From a virus (taxonomy: Duplodnaviria > Heunggongvirae > Uroviricota > Caudoviricetes), in IMG/VR virus record IMGVR_UViG_3300022775_000062, positions 1 through 5,586 of that record: a stretch of DNA of 5,586 bases; one strand, given 5' to 3'. The notes under the pieces are model-generated. The model saw only the letters and a program-made list of their open reading frames with translations. It searched no databases and was not told where the DNA came from. Position numbers and translations under genes: made by a program. Positions 1 to 1,874 of this stretch are shown here, piece after piece (within the stretch, counting starts at the first letter, position 1; every line of letters begins with the position of its first letter).

Positions 1-1454
1 TTATCCTGCATGATTTTAACCAGTCTCTTCCGTTTTACCGTCCGAGGCTTTCAGCGTGGCGGTCAGCGTATCCAGTTTTCCGCTTGCTGCCGCTGCCAGT
101 AAAACGTTCGCTGATTTCAGGGCTTCCTCACCAAAAATGGTTTTAAGGTATTCCCCCTTCTGAGACGTTCCCAGCTTGTGTTTATCAAAGCTGGCCTGAA
201 TCTCTTTCAGAATGGTGAACAACGGACGCATATTTCCCTTTTTTGTCCGAGGTTTTTAACGCCAAGCTCTTTGAGTGCATCCCATGCTTTTTCCAGTCGG
301 TGCCTGTAATCGGGTGACAACGGCACTGCTACCCGTACCCGCCATTGACCCCCTGATGTTATTGTCATGCAGCACACCTGTCATGGCCGCTGCCTGCTCA
401 AGACTTACACCTGCCGTCTTCGCAACCGGCCCGAGATAAGTCAGTGCATCACTGAGTCCCTGAAAAATCAGCCGCCGACCTTATTCATCGTTGCCGACAA
501 CACGTCGCCCACATGACTGACATCATCATTTGACAGTTGAAAGGATGCCTTAGTCCCCAGCAACAGTTGCGCGTTTTCTTCCATCGACCGCTGATTCGCC
601 AGTGCCATATTCAGCGTGACCGGCGTTGCCGCCTGAATAGCCGCAGCATCTCCACCCGCTTTCGCAATGATAATCTGTGCACCGGCCGCATCATCCGCCG
701 AGGCGGCGGTATTGTCGCCGAGCTGGCGCGCCTGTTTGCGTAGTGCGGTCATTTCGGCGGAGTCTTTTGCCACACCTAGCACGGCCTGCAATTCTGAGTT
801 TTTCTGCGCAAACTCATAACCGGGCATCAGCAACTTAACTCCGGCCATCGTTCCCGCAGCAGCAATCCCCACACCGGCAGCGCCCACTGAGGCCATATTT
901 CCGGCCAGTTCCTTTCCGGCCTGATAACGCTGTTTTACTGCGTTAAGTTTTGCCTGTTGCGCACTGACACGCGCCAGCGCGTCACGCTGACGGTTAAGTT
1001 GTGCGGTGGTTTCACTGATACGGTTTTTCAGCCCCTGCTCATCATGTGCAAGATTGCGGGTATTAATTCCCACAGCGGCCAGTTCCCGCTGCTGGCGTTT
1101 AACGGAATCCGTCAGGCGGTTATATTTCGCCTGTAAGTCCTCCGCCGCACGCTTTGCGGATTCCAGCACTTTCGCCTGAGCACGGGTCGGACGTTCGGTG
1201 TTTTTAAACTGTGTGGCAAGGGTTTCGGCCTCCTGCCGTGCCTTTTCAAGTGCATGACCAGTCACGGCGAGCTGTGCACTGGTCTTGCGAAATCCCTCAA
1301 TACGGGATGTCTGACCGTTCAGCTCGCGCAGTGATTTTTGTGTTTCCCGGATATCCCCCGACAGCGATTTGCTCGCTGTGCGGATGGATTTAAACGGGCG
1401 GGATGCCTGGTCAACAGCCCTGAGCAATACCTGTAATTTTACATTGTTACTCAT
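1..1454 (-). pseudogene. T: Phage tail tape measure protein (P2 gpT-like), N-terminal part; reading frame broken several times; gene continues past the window start
   Basis: ORF 468..1454 (328 aa) starts at ATG 1452-1454 and is Ala/Gln/Lys/Arg-rich with coiled-coil character and a Gly/Ala-rich hydrophobic stretch, typical of tape measure proteins. It ends at TGA 468-470, but tape-measure-like sequence continues in a second frame (about 286-471), a third frame (about 240-290) and then the frame of ORF 16..231, which stops at TAA 16-18. Position directly downstream of E/E' matches the P2 FI-FII-E-T order. P2 gpT is roughly 800 aa from memory, so this is only part of the gene. Confidence 0.8.
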
Positions 1455-1874
1455 TCGTGTTTCCGCTTCGCCGGAGCGCCTTTTCGCGCCATGTGATGAG
1501 TTCGGTCAGGCTCATGGGATACAGTTCTGATGGCGGCCAGTGAAATATCACTGCCACATCCGCCATCAGGTCATCGACCGAGAGATTTTTCGGGAACGTT
1601 ACTGCACCGAGTTCGGCGACAAAAAACCGACCACCTTACCGGCCAGCGCCACAAGGTCAGGCAGTTCCAGCGCGGCGACTTCCTGCTCGGTCAGCATCGG
1701 TGCCGTCATGCGCGGCAGCACTTTAATCAGTGCATCGACTTCGGAGTTTGCAACCGCAGCCAGACTGACACCGCGCAGCGTCCCGGCACTGGGTTTCATC
1801 AGCGTGACCTGTTCGATAACCTGCTCACCACGTTTGACCGGATTGTCCAGGGTAATGACATTTTCTTTGTTCAT
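1447..1874 (-). CDS. E+E': Tail assembly chaperone E+E' fusion made by programmed -1 ribosomal frameshift (142 aa predicted)
   Basis: The -1 frame after the slippery heptamer is open from 1620 down to TAA 1447-1449 and reads VAELGAVTFPKNLSVDDLMADVAVIFHWPPSELYPMSLTELITWREKALRRSGNTNE. That gives 85 + 57 = 142 aa, the size I recall for P2 E+E'. The E' stop overlaps the T start (AATGAGTAA). Confidence 0.7.
1599..1874 (-). CDS. E: Tail assembly chaperone gpE (P2 E-like), 91 aa
   Basis: Intact ORF from ATG 1872-1874 to TAA 1599-1601, sitting between tube and tape measure genes as in P2. Size matches P2 E (91 aa). The protein ends ...KVVGFLSPNSVQ with the slippery run near the 3' end. Confidence 0.85.
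   Translation of the reverse strand: MNKENVITLDNPVKRGEQVIEQVTLMKPSAGTLRGVSLAAVANSEVDALIKVLPRMTAPMLTEQEVAALELPDLVALAGKVVGFLSPNSVQ
1620..1626 (-). other. Slippery heptamer T_TTT_TTG (plus-strand CAAAAAA) for the E to E+E' -1 frameshift
   Basis: On the coding strand the codons are GGT TTT TTG (G F L), giving an X_XXY_YYZ-type heptamer T TTT TTG six codons before the E stop. This is the same heptamer I recall as the P2 E/E' frameshift site, and is analogous to lambda G/GT. Confidence 0.65.

What the first reader, a model, noticed from the sequence alone, without database searches (positions are those of the whole stretch)
1447..1874. Conserved programmed -1 frameshift in the tail chaperone (E / E+E')
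The heptamer T_TTT_TTG sits six codons before the E stop, and the -1 frame stays open for 57 more codons until it overlaps the T start codon. This is the arrangement recalled for the P2 FETUD operon and is conserved among long-tailed phages. Unlike the other frame breaks in the window, this one is expected biology and supports the identification of the module. Its intactness contrasts with the disrupted T and FII genes.
Basis: partly seen in the sequence, partly recalled or inferred. Interest (0 to 1): 0.45.

Follow-up and report, generated by a model that had tools for sequence, protein, structure and literature searches.

The report
Phage P2 tail-chaperone E/E+E' frameshift site
This is the well-known programmed -1 ribosomal frameshift of phage P2's tail assembly gene E, present here in a copy whose two protein products are identical to P2's own, so it is real but ordinary and already described.

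Summary
On the minus strand, gene E (1874..1599, 91 aa) carries the in-phase heptamer T_TTT_TTG (1626..1620), followed by six codons and the E stop. The -1 frame then runs 57 codons to a TAA (1449..1447) that overlaps the ATG of tape-measure gene T (1454..1452). The predicted fusion is 142 aa and matches phage P2 gpE+E' at 142 of 142 residues (424 of 428 nt). The P2 record annotates this -1 frameshift, and the literature reports the shift at TTTTTTG. The heptamer is invariant in 67 distinct close relatives. It is TTTTTTG in 15 of 19 compared phages, including Burkholderia, Ralstonia, Pseudomonas, Aeromonas and Acidovorax phages, and another in-phase slippery heptamer occupies the same place in the other four. 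The E' peptide (Pfam PF06528) is conserved, and substitution patterns switch to the -1 frame after the E stop. I found no significant downstream RNA structure. An upstream Shine-Dalgarno-like element co-occurs with the heptamer but is only weakly supported. The broken T and FII frames are single-base indels, mostly in short base runs, that no relative shares. They are probably sequencing errors. Verdict: already known, low interest.

The parts
1599..1874 (-). Gene E (tail assembly chaperone, 91 aa; zero-frame product gpE)
   Evidence: ORF. Pfam PF10109 Phage_TAC_7, E = 1.4e-12. Its 91 residues are identical to P2 gpE.
1620..1626 (-). Slippery heptamer T_TTT_TTG (zero-frame codons GGT TTT TTG)
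   Evidence: It is the only in-phase X_XXY_YYZ in 1,256 minus-strand codons. It is invariant in 67 distinct close relatives and present in 15 of 19 phages compared.
1602..1635 (-). Overlap stretch where both the zero frame and the -1 frame are open. It is bounded by the -1-frame TAA at 1638..1636 and the E stop at 1601..1599. Any productive shift must occur here.
   Evidence: (11-codon overlap). Matches the published statement that E' extends 37 nt back into E (PMC3931495).
1447..1620 (-). E' extension: 57 codons in the -1 frame plus the TAA stop. G1620 is read twice.
   Evidence: Pfam PF06528 Phage_P2_GpE, E = 1.2e-21, on residues 104-139 of the fusion. After the E stop, substitutions concentrate at E'-frame third positions: 14 of 23 variable sites, and 106 synonymous against 13 non-synonymous codon differences.
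1447..1874 (-). Whole E+E' coding region (142-aa fusion produced by the -1 shift)
   Evidence: 142/142 aa and 424/428 nt identical to P2 NC_001895 19430-19857, which is annotated as a -1 frameshift product.
1630..1638 (-). Shine-Dalgarno-like element TAAGGTGGT, core AGGTG 1636..1632. It is a possible upstream stimulator (inferred, weakly supported). It also contains the -1-frame stop TAA.
   Evidence: It is the strongest anti-SD-complementary 10-mer in the E ORF (-8.7 kcal/mol, rank 1 of 252). A comparable element lies upstream of every TTTTTTG site examined. Fisher p = 2e-5 against other ORF segments, but only p = 0.018 once the amino-acid sequence is held fixed.
1..1454 (-). 5' part of tape-measure gene T. 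The ATG is at 1454..1452 and overlaps the E' stop. The reading frame is broken by six single-base insertions at about 24, 239, 253, 288, 463 and 479.
   Evidence: ORF 468..1454. Pfam PF10145. Indels located. No complete E. coli genome shares them.
1931..2448 (-). Tail tube gene FII, split by a 1-base deletion beside position 2175
   Evidence: Two ORFs each match half of PF04985. Deletion located.
2461..3651 (-). Tail sheath gene FI (intact, 396 aa), first gene of the FETUD operon
   Evidence: Pfam PF04984, PF17482 and PF22671.
1903..1923 (-). Perfect 9-bp hairpin (CCGGTCAGC ctg GCTGACCGG) between the FII stop and the E start. It probably attenuates transcription into E-T-U-D (inferred).
   Evidence: Folded (about -19 kcal/mol for the intergenic stretch). 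A similar hairpin occurs in P2 and 186. The 186 record annotates it as 'tI; partial terminator'.

Best explanation
The region is the E/E+E' recoding cassette of a P2-like (Peduovirus) phage or prophage.

Proposed mechanism. Most ribosomes translating E terminate at TAA 1601..1599 and make the 91-aa gpE. A minority slip back one base on U_UUU_UUG (1626..1620): with UUU in the P site and UUG in the A site, the tRNAs re-pair to UUU UUU. These ribosomes continue in the -1 frame for 57 codons and make the 142-aa gpE+E'. They terminate inside the start region of tape-measure gene T. About 10% was reported for P2; that figure is my recollection of the abstract of Christie et al. 2002, which I could not read here.

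Both products would act as tail assembly chaperones. By analogy with lambda G/GT, the shared E part binds the tape measure and the E' domain recruits the tube protein. The fixed slip frequency sets their ratio.

Shown here: the anatomy, identity to P2, conservation of the heptamer and of the E' peptide, selection on the -1 frame, and the absence of an independent start for E'.

Inferred from the literature: that slippage really occurs, its efficiency, and the chaperone roles.
For: - Anatomy at the stated coordinates.
- The fusion protein is 142/142 identical to P2 E+E', and the DNA 424/428 identical with only silent differences.
- The P2, Wphi, PSP3 and 186 records annotate the -1 frameshift.
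- Published statements say the P2 shift is at TTTTTTG, with E of 91 aa and E+E' of 142 aa (PMC3091744). They also say E' lacks a ribosome-binding site and reaches 37 nt back into E (PMC3931495).
- PF10109 matches the E part and PF06528 the -1-frame part.
- By tblastn, 401 of 418 phage records cover at least 80% of the fusion; in every listed record of that kind the match is two joined pieces, the E part and the E' part.
- In 19 phages spanning at least 12 genera, an in-phase slippery heptamer lies at the same point of the alignment. It is TTTTTTG in 15, TTTTTTC, AAATTTT or CCCTTTC in three, and a less certain GGGAAAG in PHL101. The E' motif DDLMADIAVIFHWPPSE..SLTEL..WRE.A..RSG is conserved.
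- In 67 distinct close relatives the heptamer never varies. Variable sites move from E-frame third positions (43 of 45) to E'-frame third positions (14 of 23) after the E stop.
- In this window the GTG that P2 could use to start E' is GTA. The first in-frame start codon lies 18 codons past the shift site and has no SD. In several relatives the first start lies inside the conserved domain.
Against: - No wet-lab evidence exists for this particular copy.
- No downstream stimulatory structure was detected (z = -0.09 and -0.81). This agrees with published remarks for P2 but leaves the source of efficiency unexplained.
- If the indels in T and FII are real, the cassette sits in a defective prophage and its product would have no role.
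- The junction residue is unproven. The heptamer model gives ...GFL-V-AEL..., whereas the join in the RefSeq P2 record (base 19685 read twice) gives ...GFL-F-AEL....
Confidence: 0.93

Rival explanations
1. E' is a separate small gene translated from its own start codon, as many automatic annotations show it, and not a frameshift extension.
For: PGAP and several phage records annotate a stand-alone 'GpE family phage tail protein' CDS. P2 has an in-frame GTG six codons after the shift site. A Met precedes the Pfam domain in many relatives.
Against: - In this window that GTG is GTA, because the E stop is TAA.
- The next start (ATG 1566) has no SD (-2.9 kcal/mol).
- In RSA1, ST16phi5.4, PHL101, SEN5 and Vp_MAR the first in-frame start lies inside the conserved domain.
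- The invariant in-phase heptamer and the E' stop placed on the T start would be unexplained.
- The literature reports that E' lacks an RBS and is made as an extension of E.
Confidence: 0.03
2. The -1 frame is reached by transcriptional slippage: RNA polymerase adds one U in the T6 run, and normal translation of the edited mRNA yields ...GFFVAEL....
For: The site is a homopolymer. Some relatives have T7 (Smp131). A weak hairpin followed by a T run is flagged by the terminator scan at 1647..1626.
Against: - Productive bacterial slippage is described for runs of about 9 A or T (PMC5009743). This run has six.
- The base after the run is conserved as G in 15 of 19 phages. That matters for tRNA re-pairing but not for polymerase slippage.
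- Four relatives use non-homopolymeric heptamers (AAATTTT, CCCTTTC, GGGAAAG) that polymerase cannot slip on.
- The upstream hairpin is half G-U pairs, and the fold of that stretch is not significant (z = -0.81).
Confidence: 0.03
3. The cassette is intact only by chance or recency, inside a decaying, non-functional prophage remnant. In that case the frameshift no longer has any biological role in this genome.
For: T carries six frame-breaking insertions, FII one deletion, and the cargo MFS gene one deletion.
Against: - All eight indels are single bases. Six of them lengthen or shorten a run of three or more identical bases.
- Six lie within the first 480 bases of the window.
- None is shared by the nearest relatives, and the six in T are absent from all 5,426 complete E. 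coli genomes searched.
- The four substitutions in E/E' relative to P2 are all silent, and FI is intact.
- This pattern fits sequencing or assembly error better than neutral decay.
Confidence: 0.2

Closest known systems
Phage P2 gpE / gpE+E' programmed -1 frameshift in the FETUD tail operon (Christie, Temple, Bartlett & Goodwin 2002, J Bacteriol 184:6522; RefSeq NC_001895 19430-19857)
   Same: Same genes, same T_TTT_TTG heptamer at codons 84-85, same 37-nt overlap, same 57-codon E', and the same overlap of the E' stop with the T start. The proteins are 100% identical and the DNA 99.1% identical.
   Different: Four silent base changes. One turns the E stop from TGA to TAA and thereby removes P2's 'possible GUG start of E'' (GTG becomes GTA at 1602..1600). 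The neighbouring T and FII frames are broken in this copy. The cargo next to FI differs from P2's.
Lambda G/GT and the conserved tail-assembly-chaperone frameshift of long-tailed phages (Levin et al. 1993; Xu, Hendrix & Duda 2004, Mol Cell 16:11)
   Same: Two overlapping ORFs lie between the major tail (tube) gene and the tape-measure gene. They are joined by a low-frequency -1 slip near the end of the first ORF, and the product ratio matters for tail assembly (PMC5009743; PMC3091744).
   Different: The papers read here state that P2 and lambda tail proteins share no sequence similarity (PMC3931495). The heptamer also differs: lambda's is G_GGA_AAG, from my own knowledge. P2 has a contractile tail with a sheath, whereas lambda is a siphovirus.
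E. coli dnaX -1 frameshift (A_AAA_AAG with an upstream SD-like and a downstream hairpin stimulator)
   Same: A tandem-slippage heptamer ending in G. An SD-like element lies upstream and is the strongest in the ORF.
   Different: - No significant downstream hairpin.
- The SD-like core ends 5 nt before the heptamer, or about 8 nt when aligned to the GGAG register. The published range for -1 stimulation is 9-14 nt (PMC5009743).
- Support for the SD-like element is weak once amino-acid constraint is removed (p = 0.018).
- Efficiency is about 10% here (recollection) against about 50% for dnaX.

Membership tests
P2-type E/E+E' frameshift cassette (Peduoviridae) | The upstream ORF is a gpE homologue (tail assembly chaperone family PF10109) | tested here: met
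   PF10109, 47.8 bits against a cutoff of 25. All 91 E residues are identical to P2 gpE.
P2-type E/E+E' frameshift cassette (Peduoviridae) | The -1 frame encodes the E' domain (PF06528 Phage_P2_GpE) with no stop between the shift site and the domain | tested here: met
   PF06528, 76.3 bits against a cutoff of 23, on residues 104-139 of the fusion. 57 open codons.
P2-type E/E+E' frameshift cassette (Peduoviridae) | An in-phase slippery heptamer (T_TTT_TTG) lies inside the short stretch where both frames are open | tested here: met
   Heptamer at 1626..1620 in phase 2 of the E frame. Overlap stretch 1635..1602.
P2-type E/E+E' frameshift cassette (Peduoviridae) | Located between the tail tube gene (FII) and the tape-measure gene (T), with the E' end overlapping the T start | tested here: met
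   Gene order FI-FII-E-E'-T by Pfam and by alignment to Wphi and P2. ATGAGTAA overlap.
P2-type E/E+E' frameshift cassette (Peduoviridae) | E' has no translation start of its own | tested here: met
   No ATG, GTG or TTG until 18 codons after the shift site, and no SD before that codon.
P2-type E/E+E' frameshift cassette (Peduoviridae) | Ribosomes actually shift and produce the fusion protein | not testable with these tools
   Reported for P2, whose cassette encodes identical proteins (literature cited). The primary paper, PMC135442, is not held.
Lambda G/GT-like tail assembly chaperone pair | Synteny and a -1 frameshift linking two ORFs upstream of the tape measure | tested here: met
   Described as a parallel arrangement.
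Lambda G/GT-like tail assembly chaperone pair | Structural or sequence homology to solved tail assembly chaperones | tested here: inconclusive
   PDB sequence search found no meaningful hit. A single-sequence AlphaFold model of E had pLDDT 56.5, too poor for a fold search.
dnaX-type stimulated -1 frameshift | Downstream stem-loop stimulator | tested here: not met
   The 80 nt downstream fold no better than shuffles (z = -0.09). The literature reports none for P2.
dnaX-type stimulated -1 frameshift | Upstream SD-like stimulator 9-14 nt before the shift site | tested here: inconclusive
   An SD-like element is present and is the top-ranked one in the ORF. Its spacing is about 5-8 nt in this window and 8-12 nt across relatives. 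Synonymous-recoding test p = 0.018. Spacing rule.
Transcriptional slippage site | Homopolymer run long enough for RNA polymerase slippage (about 9 A or T) | tested here: not met
   The run has 6 T. Rule from PMC5009743. Some relatives use non-homopolymeric heptamers.

The most novel reading that the evidence does not exclude
The P2-family U_UUU_UUG site may not be a bare slippery heptamer. It may be paired with a conserved upstream Shine-Dalgarno-like stimulator (TAAGGTGGT here; AGGTGAT(C), GAGGTGA, GGAGGT or GGGGGG in other genera). Translating ribosomes would engage this element through the anti-SD sequence, as in dnaX, and this would explain efficient shifting without any downstream structure. 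The four relatives that use other heptamers lack such an element. I found no mention of this for P2 in the papers I could read.
Probability: 0.25. Interest if true: 0.3.

Novelty: already known. Interest (0 to 1): 0.1.

Why it matters
It matters mainly for annotation. The site confirms that the window holds a P2-type contractile-tail module. It also shows that the E' ORF should be annotated as a -1 frameshift extension of E, and not as a separate small gene or left unannotated. Several public records get this wrong, including the nearest relatives of this window. No new biology follows from it. The only thread with some research value is whether an upstream SD-like element helps drive the shift in this phage family.

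Tried and rejected
1. Downstream stimulatory hairpin or pseudoknot. Folds of 1619..1540 and 1650..1575 are no better than shuffles, so I rejected it.
2. Structure prediction. A single-sequence model of E gave pLDDT 56.5, too poor for a fold search, so I ran none.
3. PDB sequence search with the fusion returned only a chance hit at E = 0.88.
4. NCBIfam scan of the fusion found no family.
5. The primary paper (Christie et al. 2002, PMC135442) is not held. I relied on secondary descriptions and on the GenBank annotations.
6. My first paper search failed on a two-letter term.
7. The search for related loci with E returned only relatives of 99-100% identity. These served the codon-position test but not the question of distant conservation, so I fetched 16 diverse phage records individually.
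8. My first automatic pick of the phiCTX E ORF was wrong. I redid it by hand.
9. The terminator-like hit at 1647..1626, a hairpin followed by the T run, was considered as a transcription pause or slippage signal. I rejected it: half its pairs are G-U, and the fold of that stretch is not significant.
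Full report
**What is in the window**

All relevant genes lie on the minus strand. ORF listing and Pfam scans give the following order:
- Tail sheath FI, 3651..2461, intact, 396 aa (PF04984, PF17482, PF22671).
- Tail tube FII, 2448..1931, split into two ORFs that each match half of PF04985.
- E, 1874..1599, 91 aa (PF10109, 'phage tail assembly chaperone proteins E, or 41 or 14').
- The 5' part of the tape-measure gene T, from 1454 to the window start (PF10145).

A megablast of the whole window finds P2-like phages (Peduovirus) at 96-98% identity over 1..3880. 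It also finds two Yersinia phages (vB_YpM_115 and vB_YpM_117) and an E. coli O84:H7 prophage at 98.2% over the full length. The annotated Wphi and P2 records show the same FI-FII-E-E+E'-T-U-D order.

**Checking the observation**

Reading the minus strand shows the following:
- The E frame runs ...GGT TTT TTG TCG CCG AAC TCG GTG CAG TAA.
- The heptamer T_TTT_TTG occupies 1626..1620, in the X_XXY_YYZ phase.
- Six sense codons follow, then the stop at 1601..1599.
- Re-reading G1620 opens GTC GCC GAA ..., which runs 57 codons to the TAA at 1449..1447.
- That stop sits within ATGAGTAA, whose ATG (1454..1452) starts T.
- Upstream, the -1 frame is closed by TAA 1638..1636. The two frames are therefore both open only over 1635..1602. 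This is the 37-nt back-extension described for P2 (PMC3931495).

Every statement in the finding is correct.

As a bare string TTTTTTG is not unusual: 2 found against 1.4 expected. However, it is the only in-phase slippery heptamer in 1,256 minus-strand codons. A 57-codon open -1 stretch has a probability of about 0.05 at the observed stop density.

**Identity with the known case**

The 428-nt region differs from P2 (NC_001895 19430-19857) at four positions, all silent. The predicted 142-aa fusion is identical to P2 E+E' at every residue.

The P2 RefSeq record annotates E+E' as 'shares amino terminus with gpE; -1 frameshift; essential tail protein' and carries a 'site of -1 translational frameshift' feature. 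Wphi, PSP3 and 186 carry equivalent annotations.

Lynch et al. 2010 state that in P2 the -1 shift occurs at TTTTTTG and produces the 91-aa E and the 142-aa E+E', with no downstream structure (PMC3091744). Lee et al. 2014 summarise that E' overlaps T, lacks a ribosome-binding site and follows a T6G slippery sequence (PMC3931495). The primary paper (Christie et al. 2002) could not be read here. The roughly 10% efficiency and the essentiality of E' are my recollection of its abstract.

Conservation of the -1 peptide:
- A tblastn search of the fusion against 50,697 phage records finds 418 records. Of these, 401 cover at least 80% of the query; in every listed record of that kind the match is two joined pieces, the E part and the E' part.
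- I fetched 16 diverse relatives and reconstructed E+E' for each.
- The E' part aligns throughout and shares the motif DDLMADIAVIFHWPPSE..SLTEL..WRE.A..RSG. This holds from E. coli phages to Burkholderia, Ralstonia, Pseudomonas, Aeromonas, Acidovorax, Mannheimia and Vibrio phages.

Conservation of the slippery site:
- Of the 19 sequences compared, 15 have TTTTTTG in phase. These are the window, P2, Wphi, 186, PSP3, YenM_06.16-2, phiE202, 4LV2017, RSA1, phiCTX, Dobby, AP3, SEN5, LPM4 and Alfacinha3.
- Three others have a different in-phase heptamer at the same alignment column: TTTTTTC, AAATTTT and CCCTTTC. In PHL101 the only in-phase candidates (GGGAAAG, AAAGGGC) lie after a 14-residue insertion, and I chose the first.
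- The distance from heptamer to E stop varies from 5 to 22 codons.

Among 67 distinct close-relative sequences from IMG/VR and GenBank:
- The heptamer is invariant, and E and E+E' are always intact.
- Variable sites fall on E-frame third positions upstream of the heptamer (43 of 45).
- They fall on E'-frame third positions downstream of the E stop (14 of 23).
- Codon differences from the window in the E'-only part number 106 synonymous against 13 non-synonymous.

The -1 frame is therefore under protein-coding selection, and neither refutation condition is met.

**How it most likely works**

I consider tandem -1 slippage of the P- and A-site tRNAs on U_UUU_UUG the best-supported mechanism. The fraction of ribosomes that slip would fix the gpE to gpE+E' ratio. 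Both proteins would act as tail assembly chaperones on the tape measure and tube, as lambda G and GT do (PMC5009743).

Independent initiation of E' is unlikely:
- In this window P2's candidate GTG is GTA, because the E stop is TAA.
- The first in-frame start lies 18 codons past the shift site and has no SD.
- In several relatives the first start lies inside the conserved domain.

Transcriptional slippage is also unlikely:
- The run has only six T, whereas productive slippage is described for about nine.
- The following G is conserved.
- Some relatives use non-homopolymeric heptamers.

No downstream structure stands out (z = -0.09 and -0.81), in line with the literature.

**A possible upstream stimulator**

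Just upstream of the heptamer lies TAAGGTGGT (1638..1630). It is the strongest anti-Shine-Dalgarno-complementary 10-mer in the whole E ORF (-8.7 kcal/mol, rank 1 of 252).

All 15 TTTTTTG-bearing sequences have an SD-like element within 20 nt upstream: AGGTGAT in 186, AGGTGATC in phiCTX and Dobby, GAGGTGA in RSA1, GGAGGT in Alfacinha3, and GGGGGG in phiE202. Of the four relatives with other heptamers, three have none and PHL101 only a weak one (-5.8 kcal/mol).

Against other 20-nt segments of the same ORFs the enrichment is significant (Fisher p = 2e-5 over 11 lineage representatives that are not fully independent). When the amino-acid sequence is held fixed and codons are resampled, it drops to p = 0.018. 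Much of the signal therefore comes from the conserved (K/E/Q)-V dipeptide.

Spacing is about 8 nt in this window when aligned to the GGAG register, and 8-12 nt across relatives. The published range for -1 stimulators is 9-14 nt. I record this as a lead, not a finding.

**The broken neighbours**

Relative to the closest intact relative, the window carries eight single-base indels:
- Six insertions at about 24, 239, 253, 288, 463 and 479. Four of these extend T or A runs.
- Two deletions, beside 2175 in FII and at 4091 (a C run) in the MFS gene.

The best E. coli matches to window 1..520 span 514 bases and reach only 98.3% identity. None of the 5,426 complete genomes searched carries the six extra bases.

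FI is intact and the E/E' differences from P2 are silent. The pattern fits sequencing or assembly error, especially near the window's start, better than genuine decay. I cannot prove this without the reads.

**Verdict**

The finding is real and correctly interpreted. It is a textbook feature that has been verified experimentally in a phage whose E and E+E' proteins are identical to those encoded here. Novelty: already known. Interest: low.

Noticed in passing
window 1630..1638 (-): An SD-like element TAAGGTGGT lies just upstream of the slippery heptamer. It is the strongest anti-SD match in the E ORF. Comparable elements precede every TTTTTTG site in 15 phages; three of the four relatives with other heptamers have none and the fourth (PHL101) only a weak one. 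It is only weakly significant once the amino-acid sequence is held fixed (p = 0.018)..
   Followed up: partly
window 24, 239, 253, 288, 463, 479 (insertions); beside 2175 and 4091 (deletions): Eight single-base indels break T, FII and the MFS transporter gene. Six of them lengthen or shorten a run of three or more identical bases. Six cluster in the first 480 bases. None occurs in the nearest relatives, and the six in T are absent from every complete E. coli genome searched. They are probably sequencing or assembly errors rather than pseudogenisation..
   Followed up: partly
window 1600..1602 (-): The E stop is TAA here, against TGA in P2 and Wphi. This turns P2's 'possible GUG start of E'' into GTA. 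This copy therefore lacks P2's only start candidate for a near-full-length (51-aa) E'; the next in-frame start is ATG 1566, with no SD. This is a small natural argument for frameshift-only expression..
   Followed up: yes
window 1903..1923 (-): A perfect 9-bp hairpin (CCGGTCAGC ctg GCTGACCGG) lies between the FII stop and the E start. A similar hairpin occurs in P2 and 186, and the 186 record calls it a partial terminator (tI). It would lower expression of E, T, U and D relative to sheath and tube..
   Followed up: partly
window 3900..5586 (-); L002 6912..10474; L003 6912..10474: A non-phage cargo lies between FI and the tail-fibre genes: an MFS transporter annotated nepI in one record, an alpha/beta hydrolase, and in the full relatives a divergent LysR regulator. 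From memory, this is P2's variable 'orf30/Z-fun' moron position. The same cargo occurs in Yersinia phages vB_YpM_115 and vB_YpM_117 and in an E. coli O84:H7 prophage. It is far better conserved (0-1 differences per 250 bases) than the phage genes..
   Followed up: no
window 3755..3775 (-): A strong intrinsic-terminator-like hairpin (AGGCGGGC tgatt GCCCGCCT followed by TTTCTTT) lies between the cargo MFS gene and the FI upstream region. It presumably insulates the late tail operon from cargo transcription..
   Followed up: no
L004 (P2 NC_001895) 686; L002 4438..4593; L003 4446..4589: Public annotation of this site is inconsistent. The RefSeq P2 join re-reads base 19685, one base after the heptamer, giving ...GFL-F-AEL instead of ...GFL-V-AEL. 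PGAP annotates E' as a separate GTG-initiated gene. The vB_YpM_115 record does not annotate E' at all..
   Followed up: partly
window 239..245 (+): The only other TTTTTTG in the window is antisense to T and exists only because of one of the homopolymer insertions (T5 became T6)..
   Followed up: yes
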